NCBI GenBank assembly: GCA_003141525.1
Contig: PLML01000004.1
Span: 787 to 64,786 of the forward strand
Origin: Bacteroidales bacterium
GTDB lineage: Bacteria; Bacteroidota; Bacteroidia; Bacteroidales; VadinHA17
Length of the DNA: 64,000 nt
Direction: 5' to 3'
Position 1 is the stretch's first letter, and each line of letters begins with the position of its first letter. The notes below the pieces were generated by a model. It was not told where the DNA came from, ran no database searches, and worked only from the letters and a program-made list of their open reading frames with translations. This document shows positions 719 to 13,956 of this stretch, one piece after another. The position numbers and the translations under genes are program-made.

Positions 719-832
719 TGTTGACGATATAAGCAGTGTGTTCAAAATATAGCTGAAGTCACTGCAACCATAGGTAAATAGAGCTTGTCAGGCACTTCTC
801 AGGATGTGACTGACGGGGCGGAAGTTTGCCAG

Positions 833-877
833 AAAGCAAAGACAAAAGACAAAAGGAAAAAGACAAAAGTAAAAGTG
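833..877. repeat. purine-rich low-complexity arm, family A (AAAGACAAAAG units), left/outer
   Basis: The sequence aaagcaaagacaaaagacaaaaggaaaaagacaaaagtaaaagtg is the reverse complement of the CTTTTGTCTT-type arms at 2740-2814. Confidence 0.7.
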
Positions 878-900
878 TTTCGCATTTTTCGTTTCACGTT

Positions 901-942
901 CAGAGAAGCGCAGAGCGCAGAGCACAGGGCTCAGAGAACAGA
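901..942. repeat. left arm B (heptamer NCAGRGC x5)
   Basis: The sequence cagagaagcgcagagcgcagagcacagggctcagagaacag is an imperfect inverted partner of 1336-1381. Confidence 0.75.
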
Positions 943-971
943 ATAAATGACTTAGAAATAAATAAGAGATA

Positions 972-1334
972 ATGATAATGGACGATTTCAGATTTGAGAA
1001 GCTTGATATCTGGAAAGAATCAATTGAGATTTCGGATGTACTATTCGATTATGCAGACAAGGCTGACGATAAAAGACATTATAAATTTGCTGAACAATTA
1101 AGATCTGCAGGGATGAGTATATCAAACAATATTGCAGAGGGATCGGGTTCTTTCTCAGATAAGGAATTTGCTAATTTTTTGAATATATCCCGTCGTTCAA
1201 TTTTTGAATGTGCAAATATTCTTTTTATTTTCGAACGAAGAGGAATTATTAATCAAATAGAGAGAACTTCTATATATCTTAAACTAATAATATTAAGTAA
1301 GAAAATTACCAATTTCCGCAAATCTTTAAAATAA
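972..1334 (+). CDS. four-helix-bundle protein (23S rRNA intervening-sequence protein family, PF05635/TIGR02436), NIAEG subtype
   Basis: 120 aa. Family hallmarks are LDIWKESIEI, SISNNIAEGSGSFSDKEFANFLNISRRSIFE. It is flanked by the B arms. Confidence 0.85.
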   Translation: MIMDDFRFEKLDIWKESIEISDVLFDYADKADDKRHYKFAEQLRSAGMSISNNIAEGSGSFSDKEFANFLNISRRSIFECANILFIFERRGIINQIERTSIYLKLIILSKKITNFRKSLK

Positions 1335-1335
1335 A

Positions 1336-1381
1336 CTGCACCCTGAGCTCTGCGCCCTGCGCCCTGAGCTTCTTGTTCCCC
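1336..1381. repeat. right arm B
   Basis: The sequence ctgcaccctgagctctgcgccctgcgccctgagcttcttgttcccc reverse-complements into heptamers that match 901-942. Confidence 0.75.
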
Positions 1382-1385
1382 AAAA

Positions 1386-1417
1386 TTTGTCAGATAGATA
1401 AAAAGTATATACCTTTG
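1386..1417 (+). promoter_or_regulatory. candidate Bacteroidota-type promoter for the RHH-MazF pair
   Basis: TTTG at 1386-1389 and TACCTTTG at 1410-1417 with a 20-nt spacer. The ATG at 1440 lies 23 nt downstream. Confidence 0.4.
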
Positions 1418-1439
1418 CGATATACTTAAATTATACACA

Positions 1440-1670
1440 ATGAAGACACTCTCTTTAAAGCTCGACGACAACATCTTCAATGAGACCGAAGTTGTATTAA
1501 CAAAAGTCAAAAAATCGAGAAATCGCTATATAAATGAAGCTGTTGACTATTATAACCGTATCAATAAGAGAACCCTGATTTCACGAAAGCTTATCAAAGA
1601 ATCAAAGCTTGTCAGGAAAGAATCGCTGACAGTTCTTTCCGAATTTGAAAATCTCAATGATGAAAATTAA
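1440..1670 (+). CDS. putative ribbon-helix-helix antitoxin
   Basis: 76 aa. MKTLSLKLDDNIF...SRNRYINEAVDYYNR fits an RHH/CopG-like pattern. It overlaps the downstream MazF-like gene. Confidence 0.55.
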   Translation: MKTLSLKLDDNIFNETEVVLTKVKKSRNRYINEAVDYYNRINKRTLISRKLIKESKLVRKESLTVLSEFENLNDEN

Positions 1671-2004
1671 ACAATTTGATATCTGGATTGCGGATCTCGT
1701 ACCACAACGAGGAACAGAAACCGGCAAAGTAAGACCTGTTTTAATTGTTCAAACCAACCTTTTAAATAACGTGCACCCATCTACTTTTATTTGTCCCATT
1801 ACAACCAATGTAGAGAAAGACAGCGATATATTAAGGGTTCATATAAGAAAGGGAATCGCAAATCTCAAGATTGAATCTGATATTATGATTGATCAAATCA
1901 GAGCTATTGATAACAGAAGATTGTTAAATAAAATTGGCGAACTGACAAAAGAGCTTCAATTAAAAGTTAAGGATAATATCAAAATAATTTTTGATCTGGA
2001 CTAG
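1645..2004 (+). CDS. mazF: PemK/MazF-family toxin (mRNA interferase)
   Basis: FDIWIADLVPQRGTETGKVRPVLIVQTN...ICPITT...IMIDQIRAIDNRRL are classic MazF/PemK motifs. The true start may be an internal Met a few codons in. Confidence 0.8.
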   Translation: MKISMMKIKQFDIWIADLVPQRGTETGKVRPVLIVQTNLLNNVHPSTFICPITTNVEKDSDILRVHIRKGIANLKIESDIMIDQIRAIDNRRLLNKIGELTKELQLKVKDNIKIIFDLD

Positions 2005-2015
2005 CTCAATTGTTA

Positions 2016-2051
2016 AGGAGAAAGTAAGTAAAAAGTAAAAAGTAAAAAGTG
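2016..2051. repeat. left arm C (AAGTAAAA units)
   Basis: The sequence aggagaaagtaagtaaaaagtaaaaagtaaaaagtg is the inverted partner of 2697-2739. Confidence 0.75.
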
Positions 2052-2205
2052 TTTATTTATTATGAAGGAGAATGATTTAAAGGAACGTTTATTCCGTTTT
2101 GCGGTTAATGTGTTAAAAATGCTCGGAACATTAAAAGGGGGAAAAGAGACAGATGTTATAAAATATCAATTATCAAAATCAGCTACTTCATCTGGCGCTA
2201 ATTAT

Positions 2206-2493
2206 TCACCCTGTCAAATTGCATCAAATTGTTAAAAGATTTTTATTGTACATATGTTTTAAGGAGTTTGACCGATTTCAAATTTTACGTTGGTTTTACA
2301 TCAGATTTGATGCAAAGATTTGAGGCGCATAACGCGGGTAAAGTACCTTCAACCAAAAATCGGAGACCTTTTGAAATTGTATACTTCGAAGGTTGTCGCT
2401 CAAAAGAAGATGCAATTAATCGAGAGAAATATCTGAAAACATTTTATGGGAAGATGTTTTTGAAAAACCGCCTCAAATCTTATTTGACTGGGT
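2206..2493 (+). mobile_element. 288-bp GIY-YIG micro-element with inverted termini CCCTGTCAAAT/ATTTGACTGGG
   Basis: The left end is tcaCCCTGTCAAAT (2209-2219) and the right end is ATTTGACTGGGt (2482-2492). It carries only the 88-codon GIY-YIG ORF and sits precisely inside a conserved host codon block. Confidence 0.75.
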
Positions 2494-2495
2494 AG
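2229..2495 (+). CDS. small GIY-YIG nuclease family protein
   Basis: YVLRSLTDFKFYVGFTSDLMQRFEAHNAG...REKYLKTFYGKMFLKNRL carries the GIY/YIG, R and E motifs of the UPF0213-like single-domain GIY-YIG proteins. The start is non-ATG (TTG) in the track. Confidence 0.85.
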   Translation: MLKDFYCTYVLRSLTDFKFYVGFTSDLMQRFEAHNAGKVPSTKNRRPFEIVYFEGCRSKEDAINREKYLKTFYGKMFLKNRLKSYLTG

Positions 2496-2696
2496 AGAAT
2501 CTCAATCTGGATCCTCAAAGGCAGATTTTGCGAATAAAGTGAGAATTTCATTGCGAGAAATGCGCGAATCAAATTATTGGTTACGAATTATAAAGGAACT
2601 TTTCCCAAAAACAGAAAATATTGTATATTTAGTTGGCGAAAGCGAAGAGCTAGGAAAAATTCTTGCTTCAATTCTAATAAAATCACGGAACTGACT

Positions 2697-2739
2697 CATT
2701 CTTTACTTTTACCTTTTTACTTTTTACTTTTTACTTTAT
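2697..2739. repeat. right arm C
   Basis: The sequence cattctttacttttacctttttactttttactttttactttatc is the reverse complement of the AAGTAAAA units. Confidence 0.75.
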
Positions 2740-2814
2740 CCCACTTTTGTCTTGTGACTTTTGTCTTTTATCTTTAACCCCACTTTTGTCTTGTGACTTT
2801 TGTCTTTTATCTTA
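2740..2814. repeat. right/outer arm A, present as a 38-bp tandem duplication
   Basis: cccacttttgtcttgtgacttttgtcttttatctt occurs twice (2740-2776 and 2778-2814). It pairs with 833-877. Confidence 0.8.
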
Positions 2815-2825
2815 AACATAATATA

Positions 2826-3608
2826 ATGAAGCACCTCACCCTCATACTATCTACTGCCTTACTTCTGGCCGCTTCCTGTACCAGCCAAAAGAAACTAGCG
2901 TATCTGAATAATCTCCCCGAGCCAAAAGGTGAAGAGTCGTTTAACATGTCTATCCCGGACTATAAAATCCAGCCGCGCGATATACTTTATATTTCAGTAA
3001 AAGCTATGGCCCCTGATGGTTCAATTAAAGATTTCTTATCATCTGGTAGTAATAACGGGATGTACTTAACACAGGGTGATGCAGGAGGGGCTTTTATGGG
3101 CTATAATGTCAGCCCGGATGGGTACATTACACTAGTGCCAATTGGACAGATAAAAGTAAGTGGTCTTACACTGGAGGAAACCAGAAAAAAACTGCAGGAA
3201 TTAACAGAAAAAGTCTTCCTAAACTCAACTGTAGAATGTAAATTGCTCAGTTTTAAATTTACGGTGATTGGAGAAGTCAAAAGTCCGGGAGCATATATCA
3301 ATTACAATAATTACCTGACTGTTATTGAAGCAATTGGACGCGCCGGAGGAGTAGGCGACTTAGGAAACAGGAACCGGATCCTGGTTGTTCGTCCGATTGA
3401 TAAGGGAACCAAAACCTATAGAATTAATCTGCAGGATAAAAATATTCTTACATCAGAAGCATATTTTCTTCTTCCAAATGACGTGGTAATAGTGGAACCG
3501 GTGAGACAGAAGATCTTTAACATGAATGTGCCGACTATTTCTTTTGTAATCTCAACCTTCACAGCAACAATTACGATGACACTTTTGCTCATTAATTATT
3601 TGAAATAA
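2826..3608 (+). CDS. wza: polysaccharide export outer-membrane lipoprotein (Wza/BexD family)
   Basis: Lipoprotein signal MKHLTLILSTALLLAASC. Poly_export/SLBB-like motifs are PDYKIQPRDILYISV, GYITLVPIGQIKVSGLTLEE and VIGEVKSPG. The track ORF start at 2793 translates the repeat arm, so I use the Met at 2826. Confidence 0.85.
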   Translation: MKHLTLILSTALLLAASCTSQKKLAYLNNLPEPKGEESFNMSIPDYKIQPRDILYISVKAMAPDGSIKDFLSSGSNNGMYLTQGDAGGAFMGYNVSPDGYITLVPIGQIKVSGLTLEETRKKLQELTEKVFLNSTVECKLLSFKFTVIGEVKSPGAYINYNNYLTVIEAIGRAGGVGDLGNRNRILVVRPIDKGTKTYRINLQDKNILTSEAYFLLPNDVVIVEPVRQKIFNMNVPTISFVISTFTATITMTLLLINYLK

Positions 3609-3612
3609 AAAA

Positions 3613-3668
3613 TTCTAAGTTCAAAGTTCAAAGTTCAAAGTTCAATGTTCCAAGTTCCATGTTTAAAG
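3613..3668. repeat. left arm D (CAAAGTT units)
   Basis: The sequence ttctaagttcaaagttcaaagttcaaagttcaatgttccaagttccatgtttaaag is the inverted partner of 4361-4400. Confidence 0.75.
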
Positions 3669-3837
3669 ACATATTTATATGAAGATAGAGAAGTTTGAAG
3701 ATCTGGAGATTTGGCAAGAAGCCAGGGAGTTATGCAAAAGAGTCTTTGAAATAACTTCCGTCAGTCCGTTTTGCAATGACTTTAAATTTAGGGATCAGAT
3801 CAGAGCTTCATCTGGATCAGTAATGGATAATATAGCC

Positions 3838-4127
3838 TGCCCTGTGAAATAGCAAGATGTATTATGTATATATACTTATAAGCGAAAAAGATAACATGTT
3901 TTATACAGGTTATACATCAGACCTTGAAAATCGAATAGAAGAGCATTTGAAAGGGAAAGTAAATTCTACTAGGCACAGATTGCCTTTAAAGCTTGTCTAC
4001 TATGAATGTTCTATTAATCAGGATGATGCGCTTCATAGAGAGAAATATCTTAAAAGTACGTATGGCAAACGATATATTAAGAACCGTTTAAAACATTTTC
4101 TAAATGAGTAAATATTTCACAGGGCAA
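3838..4127 (+). mobile_element. 290-bp GIY-YIG micro-element with perfect 13-bp inverted termini GCCCTGTGAAATA
   Basis: GCCCTGTGAAATA at 3839-3851 and TATTTCACAGGGC at 4113-4125. The only cargo is an 84-codon GIY-YIG ORF. Confidence 0.8.
3857..4111 (+). CDS. small GIY-YIG nuclease family protein
   Basis: [30 protein letters not shown]...[18 protein letters not shown] is a paralog of the 2229-2495 product. Confidence 0.85.
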
Positions 4128-4360
4128 GAAGGCTTCGAACGTGGTGGAAATAAAGAGTTTATCCAGTTTCTGAGTATTGCCAAGGGATCTTGTGGTGAAG
4201 TCCGTTCACAATCTTATCGATCATTTGACTATAAATATATTAACCAGGAAATTTTGGATGAACTTATTTCCAGAACAATGCAACTAAGCAAGAAAATCTC
4301 ATCACTTATAGGATATTTGAAAAATAGCGAATTTAAAGGCTCAAAATTCCATACCTCATA

Positions 4361-4400
4361 ACTTTGAACCTTGAACCTTGAACATTTAACCTTGAACCTG
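4361..4400. repeat. right arm D
   Basis: The sequence actttgaaccttgaaccttgaacatttaaccttgaacctg runs directly into the wzc start codon. Confidence 0.75.
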
Positions 4401-6838
4401 TGACCATGGATCCAAATTATCCCTCCCCCCCTCAGCCAAACCTCCCCGAGGACGACAACCTCGACATAAAAAGATATCTAACTCTGTTCATGAGCAACTG
4501 GTACTGGTTTGCAATCTCATTATTTATTGCACTGACAGTTGCCTATGGCATAAACAGGTACTCCAGTAAACTATATACTATTTCGTCAACACTCATGATA
4601 AGTGATGACCAGTATTCAGGGTCGAGCAGAATTGTAAGCAGCGCAATCCCCGGAGGAGATATTTTCAGGAGCAAGCCAAACATAACAAATGAAATATCAA
4701 TACTGAAATCTTTCAGCCTCAATAAAAGAGTAATAGACTCATTACCCGAATTCAGGGTGGCATATTATGGTGTCGGAAAAAGAAACATCGCTGAGACCCA
4801 GCTTTATAAAAACTGTCCTTTCAGGGTAACATCAGAATCTGTTGATGTTCAGCCTAAAAATGTAAGAGTAAATATCATTATAAGTTCTGCAACAACTTAT
4901 TCACTGGAAATTAATGGGAATAAGAATGTTGAAAAGGACCTTAAATTTGGCCGGCTCTTCAGTAAAGATGGTTTTAAATTCATTATTGAATTGAGAGATC
5001 CGAATAATTTTAAATTTAATCCTAAAGTATCAAATAAATACTATTTTTATTTTACATCTTCTGACGAACTGGCAAACAATTACAGGGCAAATCTGAGTGT
5101 GGCACCGATTGAAAAAGATGCCACTATTGTTAATTTATCTAAAGTAGGTCTGGATCCGCAGCAGGAAGCTGATTACCTGAATAAACTTATGGAAGTATAT
5201 AGAAATCAGGGTTTGGAATCTAAGAATCATATTGCTGACACTACAATTGCTTTTATAGATAAACAACTCGGCTTTGTTGCAGATTCTCTTAAAAAGGCCG
5301 ATAATAAACTTCAGAGATTAAGACTTGACAACAAATTGATTGACCTCGGTAAGGATGGCACTCTTTTACAAACTCGTTTAGAGAAGTTTGCGAATGAAAA
5401 AGTATCCCTTAAGCTTCAATATTATTATTTTCAATATCTGAAAGAATATCTTGACACCAAAAACGAATCGGGTGATATTGTTTCTCCGAATGTTATGGGA
5501 ATTACCGAACCGACGTTAGGAAAACTGGTTCAGGAACTTTCAGAACTCCAGAAAAAGAAGAAAGAGATGTCTATGAACCTTTCAGCGGAGGTGCCGCCGT
5601 TAAATCTATTAACTGAAAACATACACAAAATAAGAATGGCTCTTACCGAGAATATAAAGAGTAGTTTTGCCAGTATAGAACATTTAATTGACGATTCAGA
5701 AAAAAATATAGAAGAGGTGAACCAGGAGATAAATAAACTTCCGGGAACCGAAAGTAAGAGGATAGGTATTCAGAGAGACTTTGATATAAGCAATACTGTT
5801 TATACCTATCTTCTTGAGAAAAGAGCTGAAACCGGTATTGCAAAGGCTTCAAATGTCCCGGACAGCAAAATTGTTGATTATGCAAATATCATTAATACCG
5901 TCCAAATTAAACCAAAGCCAGGAGGGAACAATTTAAAGGCATTACTTTTTGGCATATTAATTCCCGCGGTCATTTTATTCTTATTATATTATTTAAATAA
6001 CAAAATTATCGACAACGGGGACATTATTAAAAAAACAAATGTACCGATAATGGGGTATGTCAGTCACAGCGAATTTAAAAAAGAGATCCCTGTTATTGAT
6101 AACCCGAAATCAGCTCTTTCAGAATCATTCCGTTCAATCAGAACATCTTTACGATATTTTACAAAACAATCCAGCCATTCTGTTATTGCCATTACATCCA
6201 CTATAAGCTCGGAGGGGAAAACTTTTATATCAATTAATCTTGCAGCAATAACGGCACTGCTTGGTAAAAAAGTATTATTAATCGGTCTCGATCTTCGGAG
6301 ACCAAGGATACACAAAATCCTGGGGATTGACAATAGCGAGGGTCTCAGCACCTATTTAATAGGTAATTGTGAATATAAAGAAGTTATAAAGGAAACATCA
6401 TTAAAGAATCTGTATTATGCTACTTCCGGACCAGTACCCCCAAATCCGGCTGAACTGCTAGAGGAGGAAAGGATGGATGCATTTATTGTGAAAGCGAAAA
6501 AGGAGTTTGATTATATATTTATAGATACCCCACCGATTGCGATAGTTTCAGATACTTTATTAATTGCCAGGTTTGTAGATGTTAATCTTTTTATTGTGAG
6601 GCAGAGGTATACCTCAAAAAATACATTGGAATTAATTGAGGAATTATACAAGGATGAAAAACTTAAACACATGGGGATTATTATTAATGATATAAGCCTT
6701 ACAGGTTATTATGGGTATGGGATAAGATACGGCTATTATAAGGGTTATGGATATTCATACGGTAAAAACTACTATGGGCAGTATTCTTACAGCCGGTACG
6801 GATATTCAGATAAAGAACATGGATATTATAATACTTAA
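4400..6838 (+). CDS. wzc: chain-length determinant / tyrosine autokinase (Wzc/GumC family)
   Basis: 812 aa with a Wzz-like periplasmic coiled-coil region and two TM segments. Walker A is SEGKTFISINLA, followed by DLRRP and IDTPP. The C-terminal tail is Tyr-rich (YYGYGIRYGYYKGYGYSYGKNYYGQYSYSRYGY). The start is GTG 4400 or ATG 4406. Confidence 0.9.
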   Translation: MTMDPNYPSPPQPNLPEDDNLDIKRYLTLFMSNWYWFAISLFIALTVAYGINRYSSKLYTISSTLMISDDQYSGSSRIVSSAIPGGDIFRSKPNITNEISILKSFSLNKRVIDSLPEFRVAYYGVGKRNIAETQLYKNCPFRVTSESVDVQPKNVRVNIIISSATTYSLEINGNKNVEKDLKFGRLFSKDGFKFIIELRDPNNFKFNPKVSNKYYFYFTSSDELANNYRANLSVAPIEKDATIVNLSKVGLDPQQEADYLNKLMEVYRNQGLESKNHIADTTIAFIDKQLGFVADSLKKADNKLQRLRLDNKLIDLGKDGTLLQTRLEKFANEKVSLKLQYYYFQYLKEYLDTKNESGDIVSPNVMGITEPTLGKLVQELSELQKKKKEMSMNLSAEVPPLNLLTENIHKIRMALTENIKSSFASIEHLIDDSEKNIEEVNQEINKLPGTESKRIGIQRDFDISNTVYTYLLEKRAETGIAKASNVPDSKIVDYANIINTVQIKPKPGGNNLKALLFGILIPAVILFLLYYLNNKIIDNGDIIKKTNVPIMGYVSHSEFKKEIPVIDNPKSALSESFRSIRTSLRYFTKQSSHSVIAITSTISSEGKTFISINLAAITALLGKKVLLIGLDLRRPRIHKILGIDNSEGLSTYLIGNCEYKEVIKETSLKNLYYATSGPVPPNPAELLEEERMDAFIVKAKKEFDYIFIDTPPIAIVSDTLLIARFVDVNLFIVRQRYTSKNTLELIEELYKDEKLKHMGIIINDISLTGYYGYGIRYGYYKGYGYSYGKNYYGQYSYSRYGYSDKEHGYYNT

Positions 6839-6883
6839 GGTTAAGGCCAAGTAAGGTTAAGGTTAAGGCTAAGGTTGAGAAGA
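6836..6883. repeat. left arm E (AAGGTTAAGG/GTTGAG units)
   Basis: The sequence taaggttaaggccaagtaaggttaaggttaaggctaaggttgagaag begins on the wzc stop codon. Confidence 0.8.
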
Positions 6884-6897
6884 AGAATAAATAAAAC

Positions 6898-7254
6898 ATG
6901 ATTTACATAAGTTTTACTGAAATGCCAGTTTGGCAGAAAGCACATAAGCTTGCAATTGAAGTATTTAATCTAACAATTAATCTTCCAAGGTCTGAAGATT
7001 ACGGATTGACATCCCAGATTCGTAAATCATCAAATGGAGTAGCTGCCTGTATCGCTGAAGGATTTGGAAGAAGTACTAAAAAAGACAAATCAAATTTTTA
7101 TATAATTGCACGGGGTTCCTCATTCGAAACCCAGAACCATTTATTATATAGCAACAAAGTTGGTTATTTTGAAACTCAAATTACTCAACGTCTTTTTGAT
7201 GAGTATAATGAGCTCATTTACGAGTTGAATAAACTTATTAAATCCCTGGAATAA
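6898..7254 (+). CDS. four-helix-bundle protein (23S rRNA IVS protein family), NIAEG-like subtype
   Basis: 118 aa with MPVWQKAHKLAIEVF, SSNGVAACIAEGFGRSTKKDKSNFYIIARGSSFETQ. Confidence 0.85.
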   Translation: MIYISFTEMPVWQKAHKLAIEVFNLTINLPRSEDYGLTSQIRKSSNGVAACIAEGFGRSTKKDKSNFYIIARGSSFETQNHLLYSNKVGYFETQITQRLFDEYNELIYELNKLIKSLE

Positions 7255-7278
7255 GACAGGAACTAAGGTTTATGGATT

Positions 7279-7368
7279 CTCAACCTCAACCTTAACCTCA
7301 ACCTTAGTAACCTCAGCCTCAACCTCAACCTCAACCTCAGTCTCAACCTCAACCTCAACCTTAGCCTC
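7279..7368. repeat. right arm E (CTCAACC/TTAACC units, about 90 bp)
   Basis: The sequence ctcaacctcaaccttaacctcaaccttagtaacctcagcctcaacctcaacctcaacctcagtctcaacctcaacctcaaccttagcctc is the reverse complement of arm E but longer. Confidence 0.8.
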
Positions 7369-7439
7369 ATTTTATGGTTATAACAATAAAAAGTCAACAT
7401 TTATCACTATTTTTGTGGTTATAATCTGGTAAATTAAAT

Positions 7440-8874: not shown

Positions 8875-8886
8875 AGATAGTCAGGT

Positions 8887-9294
8887 ATGGTAACAAAAAA
8901 GAAAATAGTGGTTATAATTGAAAAGACAGATACCGGATTTTCTGCTTATTCAGAAGACTATCCGGTATTTACAACAGGAGCAACAGTGAATGAGTTGCTT
9001 GAAAATACCAATGAAGGTTTCACCCTTTACTTTGGGGATAAAAATCATGGTACGCAACAGATTTACTATGAAATAGATTTTAAGCAGTTCTTTCAATACT
9101 ATAAGGTGATAAACTCCAAAGCACTTGCTGAGAAGATCGGCATGAATCCTACTCTTTTATCTCAATATGTGAGAGGTCATAAAAGACCATCCGAGAAACA
9201 AAGCCGAAGGATTCTGTATGGTATTAACAAGATCGGACAGGAACTGGCTGAAATGAGTGTTATTTATGAAAAACAAGATAAAAGACAAAAGTAA
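8887..9294 (+). CDS. hicB: HicB-family antitoxin with C-terminal HTH
   Basis: It has a UPF0150-like N-terminus (VVIIEKTDTGFSAYSEDYPVFTTGATVNELLEN) and an XRE-like HTH (LAEKIGMNPTLLSQYVRG). It lies directly downstream of hicA. Confidence 0.75.
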   Translation: MVTKKKIVVIIEKTDTGFSAYSEDYPVFTTGATVNELLENTNEGFTLYFGDKNHGTQQIYYEIDFKQFFQYYKVINSKALAEKIGMNPTLLSQYVRGHKRPSEKQSRRILYGINKIGQELAEMSVIYEKQDKRQK

Positions 9295-9354
9295 AAAGAT
9301 AAAAGTAGGGCCGAGCGTTAAGAATTTGCCCGGTGGGCAAATTTAGCGACGGAG
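9271..9354. repeat. composite left arm (family A units plus unique segment G containing palindrome AATTTGCC-N5-GGCAAATT)
   Basis: gataaaagtagggccgagcgttaagaatttgcccggtgggcaaatttagcgacggag matches the reverse complement of 12477-12543 with only a few mismatches. Confidence 0.8.
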
Positions 9355-9367
9355 CCAGTTTGTAGCG

Positions 9368-9508
9368 ATGGAAAAGAAAAATGACCTTTGCGAAAGGCTT
9401 TTTGAATTTGCAGTAAGAGTCATTGAATTTTTGAAAACATTATCCTATTCACCTGAAAATAAAACTATTCGGACACAACTGTCAAAAAGCGCTGATTGGA
9501 TTAGTTGA
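9368..9508 (+). pseudogene. 5' fragment of a four-helix-bundle gene (GANY subtype)
   Basis: MEKKNDLCERLFEFAVRVIEFLKTLSYSPENKTIRTQLSKSA is nearly identical to the 13474 copy. It then diverges and stops (DWIS*). Confidence 0.75.
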
Positions 9509-9589
9509 AAGCGGGGTTGTGGAGAAAGTTGAAGGAAATTATTTCATATCTGATCCATTCTTTAAGAGGTTTCTTTTCCGTTACGCCTG
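9492..9589 (+). pseudogene. possible C-terminal remnant of a DUF234-type ATPase
   Basis: LIGLVESGVVEKVEGNYFISDPFFKRFLFRYA* resembles the wHTH tail (Y.I.DPF..FWF) of DUF234 ATPases. It has no N-terminal part. Confidence 0.3.
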
Positions 9590-9643
9590 ATGGCGTTACG
9601 CTTGTGGGCGTAAAAAACAACGCAATGTTAAAAAAACTTAAAA

Positions 9644-9853
9644 ATGACAAATAAAGAACAAATACAACGAGATATAGCAATTGCTTTTGATTTCGTTGAA
9701 CAAATAATAGATAACCCGGATATACTTGATAAGATACCTGATGGTACTACGATTACTTTTCTTGACTGTGAAAATGTAAAGCCGGAGAAACCTATTAGTC
9801 AAGATACTGCAAAAAAATACGTCAACGTTAAAAGGCACTTTGAAGTATTATAA
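9644..9853 (+). CDS. small hypothetical protein (69 aa)
   Basis: An ORF with a clean ATG. I do not recognise a domain with confidence. Confidence 0.35.
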   Translation: MTNKEQIQRDIAIAFDFVEQIIDNPDILDKIPDGTTITFLDCENVKPEKPISQDTAKKYVNVKRHFEVL

Positions 9854-9865
9854 AATCTATGGCAT

Positions 9866-9903
9866 AAGATTAAGGCTAAGGTTAAGGTTAAGGTTGAGAG
9901 GTT
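9866..9903. repeat. E-type left arm (second copy)
   Basis: The sequence aagattaaggctaaggttaaggttaaggttgagaggtt has its inverted partner at 11661-11697. Confidence 0.7.
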
Positions 9904-10053
9904 ACTCTACCTAAGTCATGAAAATATTTTATCTGCTAGACGCCTGACGCCAGACGCCGGACACCCCGAAGAGTTCATATGGTCGTTAAAAGATATTAAT
10001 CTTCAGGTACAAATTATTTCTTTTAGTACATTTGTTAACTAATAATTAAAAAG

Positions 10054-10221
10054 ATGGTAACAACAATAAAAAAAGGAACATCACGCGAAAAAATCCGGTT
10101 AGCCTTAAAAAAACGACAAGTAAAAATCAAAAGTCCTGATTTAAAAAAATATTGCGGTTCTATCACCCTCCTTGAGGACCCAATGAAACTACAAAAAGAA
10201 TGGCGCAATGAATGGGACTAA
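10054..10221 (+). CDS. putative antitoxin of the VapC module (55 aa, below track threshold)
   Basis: My own translation is MVTTIKKGTSREKIRLALKK...LEDPMKLQKEWRNEWD*. It overlaps the PIN gene start by 14 nt. A TACATTTG -7-like box lies at 10027-10034. Confidence 0.5.
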   Translation: MVTTIKKGTSREKIRLALKKRQVKIKSPDLKKYCGSITLLEDPMKLQKEWRNEWD

Positions 10222-10579
10222 TATCCTTCTTGATACCAATATTGTGCTTTATCTCCTTAACGGAGAAGAGACACTGATTCCTCTTTTAGATGAGAAAAAT
10301 CTTTTTCTATCATTTATAACCCAATTGGAGTTATTGGGTAACCGGCATTTAAAACCCAGCGACATCCTGAAAATTAAACAATTTATTTCTGAGTGTACAG
10401 TGATTGATATTACACCTGCTATAAAGGAATTAGTTATAAATATTCGTCAAAAATACAACATCAAGCTTCCTGACTGTATTATTATAGCAACTTCCCTTTG
10501 GCTAAATATGCCTTTAATTACAGCTGATCACGATTTTAAAAAGATTGACATAGCCGACCTGATATATTTTCAAATATAA
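10208..10579 (+). CDS. vapC: PIN-domain toxin (VapC-like)
   Basis: ILLDTNIVLYLL at the N-terminus gives the first acidic residue. It also has ITQLELL, LPDCIIIATSL and ITADHDF, the acidic quartet pattern of PIN domains. Confidence 0.8.
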   Translation: MNGTNILLDTNIVLYLLNGEETLIPLLDEKNLFLSFITQLELLGNRHLKPSDILKIKQFISECTVIDITPAIKELVINIRQKYNIKLPDCIIIATSLWLNMPLITADHDFKKIDIADLIYFQI

Positions 10580-10626
10580 CCAGGACAAAAAAGATAACTA
10601 AAAGGGCTTATTTTAGAATTCAGGCA

Positions 10627-10725
10627 CTTGAACTTTGAACCTTAAACTTTGAACTTTGAACTTTTATCTTTTTACTTTTGTCTTTTGTCTTATTCCATAC
10701 TTTTGCCTTTTTACTTTTGTCTTGA
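10627..10725. repeat. stacked orphan right arms (D-type then A-type)
   Basis: cttgaactttgaaccttaaactttgaactttgaac is followed by ttttatctttttacttttgtcttttgtcttattccatacttttgcctttttacttttgtcttga. No matching left arm lies nearby. Confidence 0.65.
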
Positions 10726-10851
10726 TAAACCCTCAACAAATGACCAATGTTGTCCAGATAACGCACCTCTCTAAGATTTACTGATTGGTGAAAATAACGA
10801 AAACAATAAAAGGGAGGGCATAATATTACCTGAAATCTTTGCGCAGTTTTA

Positions 10852-10883
10852 TTTGGCGAACAATCCCTTATACGTTAAATTTG
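10852..10883 (+). promoter_or_regulatory. candidate Bacteroidota-type promoter for the second PIN module
   Basis: TTTG at 10852-10855 and TAAATTTG at 10876-10883 with a 20-nt spacer. It lies inside the 5' extension of track ORF 10853, which argues for the Met at 10904 as the true start. Confidence 0.4.
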
Positions 10884-10903
10884 TATATAAAACTTATAAA
10901 ACG

Positions 10904-11140
10904 ATGAACACTACTTCATATAAAAGAACGTACAGTTTCCCTTTCACATTCGATGATGTATTAAAGCTGATTAAATCATTCTCAATAGAGGATAAAGTGA
11001 GATTGGAAAAGGAATTGGAAAAAGAGACACTCGTTTACCGGGCACAAAAATTGTCAGAAAAAATTAAGTCAAATGATCTCACTATTGAGGATGTAGTAGC
11101 TGAAGTTGTGGAATACAGAAAGAAACAGAATGCAAAATGA
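10904..11140 (+). CDS. putative antitoxin partner of PIN protein
   Basis: 78 aa from MNTTSYKR. It has a charged coiled C-terminus and overlaps the downstream PIN gene. Confidence 0.45.
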   Translation: MNTTSYKRTYSFPFTFDDVLKLIKSFSIEDKVRLEKELEKETLVYRAQKLSEKIKSNDLTIEDVVAEVVEYRKKQNAK

Positions 11141-11537
11141 AGTTTTCATTCTGGATAGTAACATCTGGATAAACTATGTGATCACAAAGCGACTGGACAA
11201 ATTAGTTACACGGATTTACCACCATCAATTGACGGTTCTGACAAGTCACCACCTTATTACAGAAATACAGGAGGTATTGACTCGATCAAAGTTTAAGAAA
11301 TATCTTAAACTTTCTGACATTAAAGAATTAATTGCAATACATTTAAAACTATGCCGGCTTGTGGATACTGATGAAACTACAGACCAACTTACGGACCCCA
11401 AAGATAATTTCTTGCTAAATTTATATAACACAGGAAAAGCCACCGTAATTGTGAGCGGTGATAAAGAATTTCTCCATGAGGCAAGCGAATTAAATTACCG
11501 TGTTATGACGCTTAAAGAGTTTGAGTTATCCCATTAG
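11130..11537 (+). CDS. PIN-family toxin (TIGR00305-like)
   Basis: VFILDSNIWINYV, LITEIQEVL and DPKDNFLLNLYNTGKATVIVSGDKEFL are the typical D..D..GD pattern of this PIN subfamily. The start is taken at MQNE, which overlaps the upstream stop. Confidence 0.75.
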   Translation: MQNEVFILDSNIWINYVITKRLDKLVTRIYHHQLTVLTSHHLITEIQEVLTRSKFKKYLKLSDIKELIAIHLKLCRLVDTDETTDQLTDPKDNFLLNLYNTGKATVIVSGDKEFLHEASELNYRVMTLKEFELSH

Positions 11538-11580
11538 CAGTGACCCCGAATGCTGAAAAACAGAAGCTCCCTCCTTAGAA

Positions 11581-11697
11581 TTCAAAACGAGAACCGACCC
11601 GCTTTTCACTTTCTCCTTGTTATCTTTACTTTTGTCTTGTGACTTTTGTCTTTTATCTTTATTTCAACCTCAACCTCAACCTAAACCTGAACCTCAA
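11581..11697. repeat. stacked arms: unique segment J, A-type right arm, E-type right arm
   Basis: tcaaaacgagaaccgacccgcttttcactttctc is the partner of 12225-12305. acttttgtcttgtgacttttgtcttttatctt is the A family. caacctcaacctcaacctaaacctgaacctcaag is the partner of 9866-9903. Confidence 0.65.
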
Positions 11698-11772
11698 GAA
11701 TAAGACAGGACAATTAAAGAAGTTGCCTAATAAATAAAAGTTCGTACTTTTACAAAAGAATATTTTACCATT

Positions 11773-11988
11773 ATGAAGAAAATCAAATACGTAATTTATA
11801 AAGAAGGAAAGTATTATGTTTCACAATGTTTAAATGTGGACATATCCAGTTTTGGTACCACCATTGATGAGGCAAGTGCCAACTTGAAAGAAGCTTTACA
11901 ATTATATTTTGAAGATGATAAAAGTCATTGGGATTATTTACCAATTTCAGAAGCTTTAATTGGGGAAACTCAGCTTAATTTGAGATGA
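11773..11988 (+). CDS. short HicB-like antitoxin
   Basis: 71 aa. YVIYKEGKYYVSQCLNVDISSFGTTIDEASANLKEALQLYFED matches the UPF0150/HicB N-domain pattern. Confidence 0.6.
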   Translation: MKKIKYVIYKEGKYYVSQCLNVDISSFGTTIDEASANLKEALQLYFEDDKSHWDYLPISEALIGETQLNLR

Positions 11989-12123
11989 CAAAACTGTAAT
12001 TGTTCCTTGCCCTGTGAAATAGCACAAAGCCCCCGCCCTGGCCATATTTCACAGGGCCGGCACCCCGGAAGGAAATCCCTATTGGTACTTTTCGTTCAAT
12101 AATAAGACAATCAGGATTAAACC
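11985..12123 (+). pseudogene. decayed HicA-like toxin gene
   Basis: It starts MTKL and then hits a stop. After the 49-bp insert is mentally removed, the same frame reads FVPSAPRKEIPIGTFRSIIRQSGL, a HicA C-terminal motif. The central dsRBD-like part is missing and the 3' end appears frameshifted. Confidence 0.45.
12010..12058. mobile_element. 49-bp miniature derivative of the 3838-4127 element
   Basis: GCCCTGTGAAATAGCA...ATATTTCACAGGGC has termini identical to the 290-bp element, with only about 20 nt between them. Confidence 0.7.
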
Positions 12124-12379
12124 AAAATGATTTTGTTTGAGAAAAAGATGGTTAGTTTATACAGGAATCTACATTTTATACCTCGAAAAACACGAAACGC
12201 CCAGGGAATTAGAAAAATGATAAAAAGTGAAAGAGAAAAAAAGTTTCTCGATTTTCATTTGACTTCGTCGAGCTCGTCCCGCTAAAGCGGGACTCGGTTC
12301 ACGTTTAAGAAAGCTCTTAGCCCTGTGCCACTAAACGATAATCTCAAAACACTTAATACGAAACGTGTTAAATTTTTTA

Positions 12380-12543
12380 ACTTTTGTCTTTTTCCTTTCT
12401 CCTTTTGCCTTTTGCCTTGATTCTACTTTTATCTTGTGACTTTTGTCTTTTGTCTTGATCCACCCCTGCATGCTGTCCCCTTCGCTAAATTTGCCTACCA
12501 GGCAAATTTTTAACGCTCGGTCCTGTCTTTTATCTTTATAGAG
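12380..12543. repeat. composite right arms (long A-type, then G', then short A')
   Basis: cttttgtctttttcctttctccttttgccttttgccttgattctacttttatcttgtgacttttgtcttttgtcttga is followed by ccttcgctaaatttgcctaccaggcaaatttttaacgctcggtcctgtcttttatcttt. It ends one nt before the wzm ATG. Confidence 0.8.
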
Positions 12544-13951: not shown

Positions 13952-13956
13952 TCAAC

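What the first reader, a model, noticed from the sequence alone, without database searches (positions are those of the whole stretch)
833..2814. Nested (matryoshka) arm structure enclosing two cassettes and a MazF module
Layout:
- The outer purine-rich arm A (833-877) pairs with CTTTTGTCTT-type arms at 2740-2814.
- Inside the outer arms, in order: [arm B - four-helix gene - arm B'] (901-1381), an RHH/MazF toxin-antitoxin pair with its own TTTG/TAnnTTTG promoter (1386-2004), and [arm C - four-helix gene split by a GIY-YIG element - arm C'] (2016-2739).

What this implies:
- The whole 2-kb block sits exactly between the regulator gene and wza.
- Proper nesting of three arm pairs is what repeated insertion of cassettes into the loop of an older cassette would produce.
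- It also predicts a multi-branched RNA structure.
Basis: seen in the sequence. Interest (0 to 1): 0.75.

Follow-up and report, generated by a model that had tools for sequence, protein, structure and literature searches.

The report
Nested selfish gene cassettes before wza
The 2-kb block in front of a polysaccharide-export gene is a real set of nested stem-loop brackets, built from small selfish gene cassettes of the kind so far described only inside 23S ribosomal RNA genes, and related genomes show that the cassettes come and go one at a time.

Summary
An unconstrained fold of 800-2850 gives A/A', B/B' and C/C' as three separate long helices. Pair probabilities are 0.83, 0.76 and 0.91, and each pair is far stronger than composition-matched shuffles.

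The basic unit is a cassette. It carries a ~118-aa four-helix-bundle gene (PF05635/TIGR02436, S23p/Avd-like), in sense orientation within an operon. A 5' arm and a complementary 3' arm bracket the gene, and each arm is made of tandem 7-nt units. The Coxiella 23S rRNA intervening sequence has the same architecture. About 130 such cassettes in related genomes and metagenomes carry arms, and the B subfamily has its own arm unit.

Relatives fill the same leader-wza slot in different ways. Some have an empty A-like hairpin, some one cassette of B, C or K type, and some have nothing.

Two corrections apply.
- A' is not a unique partner of A. It is a conserved 32-mer with 7 copies in the window, and A pairs as well or better with five distant copies.
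- The arm pairs show no excess of G.U over A.C mismatches, so nothing shows that the stems are selected as RNA.

The RHH-MazF module and the GIY-YIG element are separate mobile units. Verdict: a new variant of a known kind. How the cassettes move is unknown.

The parts
806..825 (+). Conserved leader motif GTGACTGACGGGGCGGAAGT, which comes just before the first arm
   Evidence: Found in 34 of 39 Reg+wza loci, usually 90-110 nt after the regulator gene's stop. An alignment of 52 distinct occurrences gives the consensus ATGTGACTGACGGGGCGGAAGCTTGCC.
833..877 (+). Arm A: purine-rich 5' arm of the outer bracket (K-type, AAAGACA x ~5)
   Evidence: TRF 838-874, period 7. Pairs with 2743-2775. Orthologous arms follow the leader in L011, L016, L024, L044 and L049.
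877..900 (+). Orphan Z arm (GTTTCGC-type) with no partner in this block
   Evidence: Read directly from the sequence. Z...Z' pairs bracket the B hairpin or cassette in L011 and L094. Z pairs with nothing in the block.
901..945 (+). Arm B (5' arm, AGCGCAG/GCNCAGR units)
   Evidence: This is the subfamily-specific unit.
978..1334 (+). Four-helix-bundle gene, B type (S23p/Avd-like), intact
   Evidence: PF05635 E 4.8e-24. TIGR02436 E 1.9e-22. PDB 2GSC XCC0516 E 2.5e-12. The family has dN/dS 0.088. The ORF opens at 972, but the gene call in identical contigs is 118 aa.
1336..1381 (+). Arm B' (3' arm, YCTGNGC units)
   Evidence: Helix 903-941:1336-1374, 32 bp, duplex -52.7 kcal/mol, pair probability 0.76.
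1386..1417 (+). Bacteroidetes-type promoter-like site TTTG-N21-TAccTTTG for the TA module
   Evidence: The motif count in the whole window is not above chance (9 against 6.4). The site lies 22 nt upstream of the antitoxin ATG and travels with the module in L101 and L110.
1440..1670 (+). Small antitoxin-like gene (RHH-like by pattern only)
   Evidence: No family hit. It overlaps the MazF start by 11 nt. It is conserved together with MazF at 89-96% in L101 and L110.
1660..2004 (+). MazF/PemK toxin gene
   Evidence: PF02452 E 2.5e-27.
2016..2052 (+). Arm C (5' arm, AAGTAAA units); its copy number varies between strains
   Evidence: L002-L005 carry 21 nt (3 units) more at this arm.
2062..2205 (+). 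C-type four-helix-bundle gene, N-terminal part (up to ...SSGANY)
   Evidence: 78% identical to residues 1-54 of the intact L047 gene. Boundary taken from the alignment and the reading frame.
2206..2493 (+). GIY-YIG element, 288 nt, with terminal inverted repeats (about 2208-2219 and 2482-2493); ORF 2241-2495
   Evidence: PF01541 E 2.4e-16. TIR helix probability 0.87. Removing 2206-2493 restores the frame ...GANY|RESQSGSSKADF.... Uninterrupted genes exist in L032, L044, L047 and L049.
2494..2694 (+). C-type four-helix-bundle gene, C-terminal part
   Evidence: 71% identical to residues 49-113 of the L047 gene.
2695..2739 (+). Arm C' (3' arm, TTTACTT units)
   Evidence: Helix 2026-2052:2711-2736, 26 bp, probability 0.91.
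2740..2817 (+). Arms A'1 and A'2: two 39-nt units, each holding the K' 32-mer ACTTTTGTCTTGTGACTTTTGTCTTTTATCTT (2743-2774 and 2782-2813)
   Evidence: The 32-mer has 7 copies in the window (0 expected by chance). It lies 15-80 nt upstream of the wza ATG in 12 of 39 related loci.
2826..3608 (+). wza-like polysaccharide export gene (host gene downstream of the block)
   Evidence: Poly_export plus SLBB.
3609..4399 (+). Neighbouring F cassette between wza and wzc. Arms are AAAGTTC and its complement. The gene is split by a second GIY-YIG element at 3837-4126.
   Evidence: Helix 3619-3656:4360-4397. The intact gene in L013 is 90%/87% identical.
6835..7369 (+). H cassette after wzc: TTAAGG arm, intact four-helix-bundle gene 6898-7254, CTCAAC arm
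9275..12540 (+). Second nested bracket. A K arm (plus an inserted X element) is followed by residues 1-40 of a K-type four-helix-bundle gene. About 2.9 kb of other arms and TA modules come next, then X' and a K' end.
13443..13997 (+). K cassette: K arm, K-type gene holding a 124-nt GIY-YIG remnant (13624-13747), K' arm

Best explanation
The block is a pile-up of small selfish modules in the spacer between the conserved leader and wza, in a Bacteroidales polysaccharide-export operon.

**The basic unit.** It is an intervening-sequence-type cassette.
- It carries a ~118-aa four-helix-bundle gene (S23p/Avd-like, PF05635), in sense orientation within the operon.
- A 5' arm and a complementary 3' arm bracket the gene.
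- Each arm consists of 3-10 tandem 7-nt units.
- In the B subfamily the unit is characteristic of that subfamily, and the H-type cassettes seen here likewise share one unit.

**Layout of this block.**
- The outer K-type bracket (A with A'A') holds no gene here. In relatives the orthologous bracket stands alone as an empty hairpin or directly encloses a K-type gene.
- Inside it, in order, are:
  - an orphan Z arm;
  - a complete B cassette;
  - an independently mobile MazF toxin-antitoxin module with its own promoter;
  - a C cassette whose gene is broken by a GIY-YIG element. That element homes to the conserved N(I/Y)AE(G/E) motif of this gene family.

**How the nesting arose (inferred).** The nested brackets record successive insertion, replacement and decay inside an older bracket.

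**Mechanism.**
- Predicted: on the operon transcript the three arm pairs form three separate helices of 26-32 bp.
- Inferred by analogy with the Coxiella 23S intervening sequence, and not tested: the helices are RNase III substrates. Cleavage would cut each cassette out of the polycistronic RNA, leave its ends paired, and limit harm to the host operon.
- Unknown: how cassettes move at the DNA level.
For: **The arms are real and separate.**

**The cassette architecture is general.**
- For 65 full-length four-helix-bundle genes near orthologous regulator genes, the median duplex energy between a gene's own 5' and 3' flanks is -47.3 kcal/mol. Mismatched flanks give -28.9. The repeat units differ widely, mostly with period 7.
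- Of 64 distinct B-family cassettes from metagenomes, 40 have at least 3 GCNCAGR units upstream and at least 3 YCTGNGC units downstream. Reversed polarity occurs in 2 and 0. Only 4 of 65 cassettes of all families near the regulator loci show this pattern.
- H-type genes (64-95% identical) always carry TTAAGG/CTCAAC arms.

**The protein is functional.** dN/dS is 0.088 with dS about 1.8, which is saturated. The arm consensus nevertheless persists across the family.

**Sense orientation in operons.** Both neighbours are co-oriented with the gene in 68 cases and both opposed in 2, out of 80.

**Cassettes are present or absent one at a time in the same slot.**

**The outer bracket is orthologous to stand-alone hairpins.** These occur in L016 and L024. 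It is also orthologous to K-gene-K' cassettes in L044 and L049.

**A second stuffed bracket keeps a truncated gene.**

**The architecture matches the known one.** The Coxiella 23S intervening sequence has an S23p ORF in the loop and tandem heptamers (GACAGAT) immediately upstream of it, with the 5' RNase III cleavage site at the start of the first repeat. RNase III excises it (PMC4990558).

**Family membership of the protein.** PF05635, TIGR02436, PDB 2GSC, and a sub-threshold Avd match for the copy at 60788.

**The TA module moves on its own.** It occurs in L100, L101 and L110.

**The GIY-YIG element splits five subfamilies at the same motif.** C, F and K types are split in the window, and K, T2 and B types in other loci.
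Against: - There is no excess of G.U over A.C mismatches in 42 arm pairs (58 against 66, p = 0.53). Nothing therefore shows that the arms are selected as sense-RNA helices. Complementarity may be made and kept at the DNA level.
- A has no unique partner. It pairs as well or better with five other K' arms 8-13 kb away.
- K' copies outnumber K copies (5 against 2 for the 32-mer). Simple nested insertion does not explain this.
- No remnant of a gene or of the ancestral loop is left inside A/A'.
- One cassette (60628-61167) has direct copies of the same arm on both sides of the gene, with the complementary arm further upstream.
- RNase III cleavage is untested.
- Among the ORFs scanned, which cover the window up to about 55.6 kb, none is a recombinase, transposase or reverse transcriptase that could explain mobility.
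- No target-site duplications were seen at filled against empty sites.
Confidence: 0.6

Rival explanations
1. The arms are DNA-level terminal inverted repeats of non-autonomous mobile elements. They are mobilised in trans, or they target hairpins and repeat arrays. Nesting arises because arms attract further insertions, and the RNA helices are incidental.
For: - G.U does not exceed A.C in the arm pairs.
- Arms are the mutational hot spots between strains. All four differences between L002 and the window over 3.7 kb lie in arms C and F', including a 21-nt change of three units.
- Other small elements sit inside arms:
  - the X element in a K arm at 9308-9365, in L015, and in a B arm in L145;
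  - another insert in the 5' arm in L165/L166.
- Solo hairpins and orphan arms exist:
  - B/B' without a gene in L011, against the full cassette at the same site in L094;
  - the orphan Z arm;
  - supernumerary K' copies.
- Modules abut one another at arm boundaries with 0-10 nt between them.
Against: - No transposase or recombinase was found among the ORFs scanned, which cover the window up to about 55.6 kb.
- No target-site duplication was seen.
- Cassette copies are not near-identical. K-type copies in the window differ mostly at synonymous sites (sequence).
- The 68:2 orientation bias relative to the host operon points to a constraint linked to transcription.
- This rival is not exclusive of the best explanation. 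It concerns how the elements move, not what the transcript does.
Confidence: 0.25
2. The outer A/A' hairpin is a host regulatory structure of the wza leader, for example a processing, attenuation or translation-control element. The cassettes and the TA module are passengers that landed in its tolerant loop.
For: - The K' 32-mer lies 15-16 nt upstream of the wza ATG in the window, L011, L013 and L021, and within 80 nt in 12 of 39 loci. These loci span 65-94% regulator-protein identity.
- The leader motif is conserved in 34 of 39 loci.
- L016 and L024 have the hairpin with a short loop and no gene.
Against: - The same 32-mer occurs at four other places in the window that are not upstream of wza: 11628, 12425, 13965, and 9275/13444 in reverse.
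- In L044, L049 and at 13443-13997 it is simply the 3' arm of a K-type cassette.
- Many orthologous loci lack both the K arm and the K' 32-mer: L023, L034, L035, L037, L046.
- L032, L013 and L019 have the K' 32-mer but no matching K arm.
Confidence: 0.1
3. This is an integron-like gene-cassette array in which the arms play the role of attC recombination sites.
For: - The cassettes are promoterless, co-oriented small genes in a row, and toxin-antitoxin modules are frequent, as in chromosomal integrons.
- Cassettes are present or absent one at a time.
Against: - Arms come as complementary pairs on both sides of each gene, not as one imperfect palindrome at its 3' end.
- Arm sequences are subfamily-specific heptamer arrays. 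They do not share a single core.
- No integrase was found among the ORFs scanned, which cover the window up to about 55.6 kb.
- The cassettes are scattered between essential operon genes (wza, wzc, wzm, wzt), not gathered in one array behind an attI site.
Confidence: 0.03
4. The pairing is a chance by-product of low-complexity purine-rich and pyrimidine-rich spacers.
For: A and C cross-pair weakly with each other's partners, at -20 kcal/mol, because both are A/G-rich heptamer arrays.
Against: - Cognate pairs exceed 998-1000 of 1000 composition-matched shuffles.
- The 32-mer has 7 copies against 0 expected.
- Complementary arms recur around about 130 homologous genes with unrelated unit sequences.
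Confidence: 0.01

Closest known systems
23S rRNA intervening sequences that carry an S23p ORF (Leptospira, Coxiella burnetii, Brucella, Xanthomonas; PMC4990558)
   Same: - A PF05635 four-helix-bundle ORF lies in the loop of a long stem formed by flanking inverted repeats.
- Tandem heptamer repeats lie next to the ORF. In Coxiella they are GACAGAT x3, and the copy number varies between strains.
- The ORF is in sense orientation in a highly transcribed unit.
- The distribution is sporadic and looks selfish.
   Different: - These cassettes lie between protein-coding genes of a polysaccharide operon, not in helix 25 or 45 of 23S rRNA.
- They occur in many copies (8 in 64 kb) and nested in one another.
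- The ORF is under strong purifying selection (dN/dS 0.09). In Coxiella it is decaying and probably not translated.
- RNase III excision is shown for Coxiella and only inferred here.
Avd, the accessory protein of diversity-generating retroelements (PDB 4DWL; NF033474)
   Same: The fold and superfamily are the same, a pentameric four-helix bundle (PMC10053308). One window copy (60788-61141) matches the Avd model at E 2.4e-9.
   Different: - The score is below the model's cut-off.
- No reverse transcriptase was found among the ORFs scanned, which cover the window up to about 55.6 kb.
- No template/variable repeat pair was looked for or noticed.
Chromosomal integron cassette arrays
   Same: Small promoterless co-oriented cassettes with palindromic boundary elements, rich in toxin-antitoxin modules, and varying between relatives.
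   Different: - The arms are paired and flank each gene, instead of one attC per cassette.
- There is no integrase and no attI.
- The cassettes are interspersed among host operon genes.
Nested MITEs and TIR transposons
   Same: Terminal inverted repeats, solo and internally deleted derivatives, and insertion of one element into another.
   Different: - The arms are tandem heptamer arrays of variable length.
- No target-site duplication was seen.
- No transposase is known.
- The cargo is one conserved protein family.
Free-standing and intron-borne GIY-YIG homing endonucleases; UPF0213/YhbQ-type small GIY-YIG proteins (PDB 1ZG2)
   Same: - The inserted element encodes a GIY-YIG domain.
- It sits at the most conserved motif of its host gene.
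- Intact alleles of the host gene exist.
   Different: - The protein is only 84-88 aa and has no DNA-binding extension.
- The element has 12-14 nt terminal inverted repeats.
- It gave no group I intron match in Rfam.
Intergenic heptamer direct repeats in Beggiatoaceae, Cyanobacteria and Bacteroidetes (TAACTGA; PMC4679880)
   Same: Tandem 7-nt arrays lie in intergenic spacers next to start or stop codons, and the copy number changes in steps of 7 nt. One cassette (L083) has (A/T)AACTGA-type arms.
   Different: That work describes direct repeats of one heptamer. It does not link them to complementary partners or to four-helix-bundle genes ('S23' does not occur in its text).

Membership tests
S23p-type intervening sequence (IVS) element | ORF of the PF05635/TIGR02436 four-helix-bundle family inside the element | tested here: met
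   PF05635 E 4.8e-24. TIGR02436 E 1.9e-22. PDB 2GSC E 2.5e-12.
S23p-type intervening sequence (IVS) element | Flanking inverted repeats that form a long stem with the ORF in the loop | tested here: met
   B/B' 32 bp and C/C' 26 bp. The feature is general across about 130 cassettes.
S23p-type intervening sequence (IVS) element | Tandem heptamer repeats next to the ORF (as in Coxiella) | tested here: met
   Period-7 arrays in every arm. Copy number varies by 3 units between strains. Coxiella comparison from PMC4990558.
S23p-type intervening sequence (IVS) element | Located within a 23S rRNA gene (helix 25 or 45) | tested here: not met
   No rRNA or other Rfam family in 1-15000. The flanks are protein-coding genes: a putative regulator gene, wza and wzc.
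S23p-type intervening sequence (IVS) element | Excised from the transcript by RNase III | not testable with these tools
   Only predicted helices are available. There is no G.U-over-A.C bias that would indicate selection at the RNA level.
Integron gene cassette | A single attC site at the 3' end of each cassette with a conserved core | tested here: not met
   The arms are complementary pairs on both sides of the gene, with units specific to each subfamily.
Integron gene cassette | Adjacent IntI tyrosine recombinase and attI site | tested here: not met
   No integrase domain among the ORFs scanned, which cover the window up to about 55.6 kb. A few ORFs near the 3' end of the window were not scanned.
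TIR transposon / MITE | Target-site duplication flanking the terminal inverted repeats | tested here: inconclusive
   None was seen at the wza-wzc junctions when filled and empty loci were compared. The empty spacers are too diverged to align.
TIR transposon / MITE | A cognate transposase | tested here: not met
   None was found in the window ORFs scanned or in the cassettes. A gene acting in trans elsewhere in the genome cannot be excluded.
Type II toxin-antitoxin MazEF/PemIK | PemK/MazF toxin domain | tested here: met
   PF02452 E 2.5e-27, full-length match.
Type II toxin-antitoxin MazEF/PemIK | Small antitoxin gene upstream that overlaps the toxin gene, with a recognised DNA-binding fold | tested here: inconclusive
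   A 76-aa ORF overlaps the MazF start by 11 nt and is conserved with it. It has no Pfam or NCBIfam hit. The RHH assignment rests on the sequence pattern only.
GIY-YIG homing endonuclease element | GIY-YIG catalytic domain | tested here: met
   PF01541 E 2.4e-16 and 9.6e-17.
GIY-YIG homing endonuclease element | Insertion at a conserved site of a host gene, with uninterrupted alleles elsewhere | tested here: met
   The same motif is split in C, F and K types in the window and in K, T2 and B types in L095, L012 and L113. Intact alleles exist in L013, L047, L049 and others.
GIY-YIG homing endonuclease element | Carried by a group I intron, or has a C-terminal DNA-binding domain | tested here: not met
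   No Rfam intron match. The protein is 84-88 aa and consists of the catalytic domain only.
Diversity-generating retroelement | Reverse transcriptase next to the Avd-like gene | tested here: not met
   No RT domain in the ORFs scanned. The Avd model match is below its cut-off.

The most novel reading that the evidence does not exclude
The four-helix-bundle (Avd-like) protein recognises the heptamer-repeat arms of its own cassette and drives the cassette's spread. Spread could go through an RNA or reverse-transcription route with a polymerase supplied in trans, or through hairpin-targeted DNA insertion. Either way this would be a minimal, autonomous class of mobile element whose classical 23S rRNA intervening sequences are only the best-known landing sites. 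The nested brackets would then be footprints of its preference for existing hairpins and arms.
Probability: 0.15. Interest if true: 0.9.

Novelty: new variant of a known kind. Interest (0 to 1): 0.68.

Why it matters
S23p-bearing intervening sequences in 23S rRNA have been known for more than 30 years. Neither the role of the protein nor the way the elements spread has been explained.

The same architecture is shown here in intergenic spacers of ordinary operons.
- Cassettes occur in many copies.
- Arm repeats are specific to the protein subfamily.
- The protein is under strong purifying selection.
- There are abundant presence/absence polymorphisms, empty hairpins and nested copies.

This turns an oddity of a few rRNA genes into a large natural data set. 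Insertion sites, arm-protein co-variation and processing can all be studied in it.

It may also account for at least some of the unexplained intergenic heptamer arrays reported in Bacteroidetes and Cyanobacteria; one cassette seen here has such arms.

It also shows that capsule and exopolysaccharide operons can carry a dense load of selfish modules. These include toxin-antitoxin pairs and a GIY-YIG element that parasitises the cassettes themselves. The dispersed repeats could drive rearrangement of these loci.

Tried and rejected
- **Rfam, permissive search of 1-15000.** No family matched: no rRNA, intron or known RNA motif.
- **G.U against A.C mismatch test for RNA-level selection.** No asymmetry. 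I therefore do not claim that a conserved RNA structure is shown.
- **Target-site duplications.** I compared filled and empty wza-wzc junctions and saw none. The empty spacers are too diverged to align.
- **Remnant of the L016/L024 hairpin loop inside the window block.** None found.
- **Viral contigs.** No B-type cassette and no K' 27-mer, so there is no hint of a phage vector.
- **Integron reading.** Rejected, because the arms are paired and no integrase was found.
- **DGR reading.** Rejected, because no reverse transcriptase was found.
- **Do arm-unit subclades (GGAGCAG-type, GCATGG-type) form protein subclades within the B family?** The groups were too small to tell.
- **Literature.** Six full-text searches found no paper describing intergenic four-helix-bundle cassettes with heptamer arms. 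One search was badly chosen and returned only irrelevant hits. The library lacks most subscription journals, so an earlier description cannot be excluded.
- **Strain-level variants.** An exact-protein look-up gave only the same arrangement at 99% identity. Presence/absence evidence therefore comes from other species, not from strains.

Full report
**1. The observation**

The window starts with a putative regulator gene (140-718). A conserved leader motif follows at 806-825, then the block in question, then wza (2826-3608) and wzc (4400-6838). The rest of the scanned part of the window, up to about 55.6 kb, is a polysaccharide-biosynthesis locus. It encodes ABC-2/Wzt transporter parts, glycosyltransferases, aminotransferases and epimerases.

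- A 838-870 with 2743-2775 and with 2782-2813 (88% complementary over 33 and 32 nt).
- B 908-934 with 1336-1362 (85%).
- C 2026-2049 with 2713-2736 (100% over 24 nt).

Every arm is a period-7 tandem array.

An unconstrained MFE fold of 800-2850 gives three separate helices of 28, 32 and 26 bp. In the ensemble the 5'-arm nucleotides pair with their cognate arm with mean probability 0.83 (A-A'1), 0.76 (B-B') and 0.91 (C-C'). The probability of pairing with the wrong arm is 0.00. A fold of 700-7500 keeps these helices and adds those of the next two cassettes.

The in-block duplex matrix is diagonal. The cognate pairs beat 998-1000 of 1000 composition-matched shuffles.

The gene content is as described. 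Two assignments could not be confirmed by any family model: the 'RHH' fold of the antitoxin and the 'regulator' function of 140-718.

The block is not an assembly artefact. Contigs from independent ENA, JGI and Logan assemblies carry it at 99.2-99.4% identity.

**2. What the unit is**

The 'four-helix gene' belongs to PF05635/TIGR02436. Its closest solved structure is the pentameric XCC0516. This is the S23p family of 23S rRNA intervening sequences, and it is homologous to the DGR accessory protein Avd (PMC10053308).

The window holds eight such loci:
- B at 972
- C at 2062-2691
- F at 3679-4361
- H at 6898
- a K-type fragment at 9374-9493
- K at 13483-13945
- two more at 59626 and 60788

To see whether the arms are a property of the gene family, I collected two sets.
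- *80 loci around orthologues of the regulator gene* (genome contigs). All named hits are Bacteroidota, mostly Bacteroidales MAGs from fens and peat, apart from one Ignavibacteria contig.
- *80 loci around B-type relatives* (metagenome contigs).

In the first set there are 65 full-length genes. The duplex between a gene's own 5' and 3' flanks has a median of -47.3 kcal/mol, against -28.9 for mismatched flanks. The repeat units are unrelated from cassette to cassette (GGTTAAG, TGCTTGT, GAGGAAT, GGTGCAG, CGGTTAC, AAAGTGA and so on), mostly with period 7.

In the B family, 40 of 64 distinct cassettes have at least 3 GCNCAGR units upstream and at least 3 YCTGNGC units downstream. The polarity is essentially never reversed. 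Only 4 of the 65 cassettes of all families near the regulator loci show this unit pattern.

B-family proteins are under strong purifying selection (median dN/dS 0.088). Synonymous sites are saturated (dS about 1.8), yet the arm consensus persists. The arms are therefore not neutral spacer.

The genes lie in sense orientation within co-directional gene strings. Both neighbours are co-oriented in 68 cases and both opposed in 2, out of 80.

The one experimentally studied element of this kind has the same anatomy. In the Coxiella 23S intervening sequence the S23p ORF lies in the loop. Tandem heptamers (GACAGAT), whose number varies between strains, lie immediately upstream of the ORF, with the 5' RNase III cleavage site at the start of the first repeat. 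RNase III excises the element (PMC4990558).

**3. Is the nesting a history of insertions?**

The leader-wza slot differs between relatives:
- no cassette, about 220-350 bp (L019, L023, L034, L035, L037, L046);
- an A-like arm, an 85-100 nt loop and the A' 32-mer with no gene (L016, L024), folding as a hairpin of about -40 kcal/mol;
- a K arm, a K-type gene and K' (L044, L049);
- a C-type cassette only (L032, L047);
- a B-type cassette only (L018).

B-type cassettes also sit between wza and wzc (L047, L052).

Further arrangements add to the picture.
- *L097/L098* have K-Z-[B cassette]-K'x4-wza, without the TA module or the C cassette.
- *L094* has leader-K/C arm-Z-[B cassette]-Z'-TA.
- *L011*, the closest species (94% regulator-protein identity), has the same order as L094. 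Its B/B' is a gene-less hairpin.

The inner units are thus present or absent one at a time, and the outer bracket has orthologues that stand alone.

The window itself supplies a second case. The bracket 9275-12540 keeps residues 1-40 of its own K-type gene next to its 5' arm (97.5% identical to L049). About 2.9 kb follow, holding other arms, two PIN-type TA modules and a HicB-like gene.

**4.

(a) A' is not a private partner of A. It is a conserved 32-mer, ACTTTTGTCTTGTGACTTTTGTCTTTTATCTT, with seven copies in the window against none expected. It also occurs in relatives whose regulator proteins are only 65-94% identical. A pairs more strongly with five distant K' arms than with 2740-2814. A and A' are cognate by position and orthology only.

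(b) K' copies outnumber K copies, and they are tandemly multiplied upstream of wza: x2 here, x3 in L049, x4 in L097. Simple nested insertion does not predict this.

(c) Nothing remains of a gene or of the ancestral loop inside A/A'.

(d) 877-900 is an orphan arm of a further type (Z).

(e) In 42 arm pairs, non-Watson-Crick positions are G.U 58 times and A.C 66 times. Selection for pairing in the sense RNA should favour G.U. The arms therefore look like DNA-level inverted repeats, whatever their transcripts do.

(f) Arms are the fastest-changing sites between strains. All four differences between L002 and the window over 3.7 kb lie in arms. One is a gain of three heptamers in arm C.

**5. The other modules**

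*The TA module.* The antitoxin-MazF pair carries a TTTG-N21-TAccTTTG site at 1386-1417. It occurs at 89-96% identity in three other contexts (L100, L101, L110). In each context where its right end is on the contig (the window, L100, L110), that end, ctcaattgttaagg, is followed by a K/C-type purine arm. It is a separate mobile unit.

*The GIY-YIG insert.* The insert at 2206-2493 has 12-nt terminal inverted repeats, and removing it restores the reading frame. A second copy at 3837-4126 splits the F-type gene at the same motif. The intact L013 allele defines a 290-nt insertion between ...DNIA and EGFERG. A 124-nt remnant at 13624-13747 splits the K-type gene.

In other loci the same kind of element splits K-, T2- and B-type genes at the homologous residue, and solo hairpins of its ends also occur. 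It behaves as a homing parasite of the cassette gene. It gave no intron match in Rfam, and its protein is a bare 84-88-aa catalytic domain.

**6. Mechanism**

*Shown.*
- The cassette architecture, and an arm unit specific to the B subfamily.
- Sense orientation in operons.
- Purifying selection on the protein.
- Independent presence and absence of the units.
- Nesting.

*Predicted.* Three separate long helices form on the transcript.

*Inferred by analogy with Coxiella.* RNase III cuts these helices. That would release each cassette RNA with paired ends and spare the flanking operon genes.

*Unknown.* How the cassettes move at the DNA level. No recombinase, transposase or reverse transcriptase was found among the ORFs scanned. 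I saw no target-site duplications.

A DNA-level model is a serious partial rival, in which the arms act as terminal repeats and as targets for further insertion. The following support it:
- the mismatch test;
- small elements inserted inside arms, such as X at 9308-9365, in L015 and in L145;
- solo hairpins.

**7. Comparison and novelty**

By architecture these are intervening-sequence-type elements. They fail the defining location of that family, because no rRNA is present. I therefore file them as a new variant and not as members.

They are not integron cassettes, since the arms are paired and no integrase was found. They are not a DGR either, since no reverse transcriptase was found.

Six literature searches found no description of intergenic, nested, heptamer-armed S23p/Avd-like cassettes. 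The library is incomplete, so this is absence of evidence only.

Intergenic heptamer arrays in Bacteroidetes and Cyanobacteria have been reported without this link (PMC4679880). One cassette here (L083) has arms of that reported type.

Noticed in passing
window 806-825 (and L011-L095): The motif ATGTGACTGACGGGGCGGAAGCTTGCC is conserved about 90-110 nt after the regulator gene's stop and just before the first arm. It has 52 distinct occurrences and appears twice in some loci (L086, L094, L100). From memory, its GGCGGAAGC core resembles the enterobacterial ops/JUMPStart element GGCGGTAGC of polysaccharide operons. I did not test this.
   Followed up: partly
window 2206-2493, 3837-4126, 13624-13747; L012 4340-4645, L095 4918-5187, L113 2389-2694: A ~290-nt element encodes an 84-88-aa GIY-YIG protein and ends in inverted repeats (CCCTGT[GC]AAAT...ATTT[GC]ACAGGG). 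It splits four-helix-bundle genes of five subfamilies (C, F, K, T2, B) at the same conserved N(I/Y)AE(G/E) motif. Removing it restores the reading frame. It looks like a homing parasite of the cassette gene.
   Followed up: partly
window 12008-12058; L015 2892 and 3934, L061 15441, L075 7316: Solo hairpins consist only of the GIY-YIG element's two ends. The one in the window lies just upstream of a HicA-like C-terminal remnant (..KEIPIGTFRSIIRQSGL) and after a HicB-like gene (11773-11988).
   Followed up: partly
window 9275-12540: A second nested bracket. A K arm is followed by residues 1-40 of a K-type gene. Then come H, P (AGACGCC), F', K' and H' arms, two PIN-type TA modules and a HicB-like gene. 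The bracket closes with X' and K'.
   Followed up: partly
window 9308-9365 and 12465-12526; L015 10975-11040; L145 about 90-30 nt upstream of the gene at 208: A ~60-nt element (X) has an internal palindrome (aatttgccNggNgggcaaatt). It sits inside heptamer arms of different types, K arms here and in L015 and a B arm in L145. It looks like a MITE-like parasite of the arms.
   Followed up: no
window 60628-61167: This cassette has a different layout. A GGTGATT-type arm (60628-60660) and a 65-nt spacer are followed by an AATCACT array (60726-60783). Then come the gene (60788-61141) and a second AATCACC array (61133-61167). The gene is thus flanked by direct copies of the same arm, and the complementary arm lies further upstream.
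   Followed up: no
window ~2025 and 4384-4400, compared with L002-L005: Strains that are 99.4% identical differ almost only in the arms. They have three more AAGTAAA units in arm C, plus two substitutions and one indel in arm F'. The other strains' F' variant is the better complement of F.
   Followed up: yes
window 1440-2004, 8689-9294, 10054-10579, 10904-11537, 11773-12130: The first 14 kb of the operon holds five toxin-antitoxin modules or remnants, all in spaces between arms: MazF, HicA plus an HTH partner gene, PIN, PIN_3, and HicB with a HicA remnant. An AAA_14/DUF4143 ATPase gene (7440-8660) lies there too.
   Followed up: partly
L011 10795-10840, compared with L094 1590-2045: At orthologous sites bracketed by Z/Z' arms, L094 has a full B cassette and L011 has only a gene-less B/B' hairpin. 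The two arms of that hairpin join at a GAGCTC palindrome. This is either a precise loss of the loop or an empty target.
   Followed up: partly
L083 9470-9826 and L070 3572-3943: These cassettes have arms made of (A/T)AACTGA and related units. TAACTGA is the heptamer reported as unexplained intergenic direct repeats in Beggiatoaceae, Cyanobacteria and Bacteroidetes (PMC4679880).
   Followed up: no
L012 6175-6375, L014 984-1199, L017, L031, L095 288-488, L100 549-749: A second, more distant class of GIY-YIG gene (33-43% identical) has no terminal repeats and does not lie inside a four-helix-bundle gene. In L012, L014, L017, L031 and L100 it sits in the leader-wza slot just after a leader motif.
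   Followed up: no
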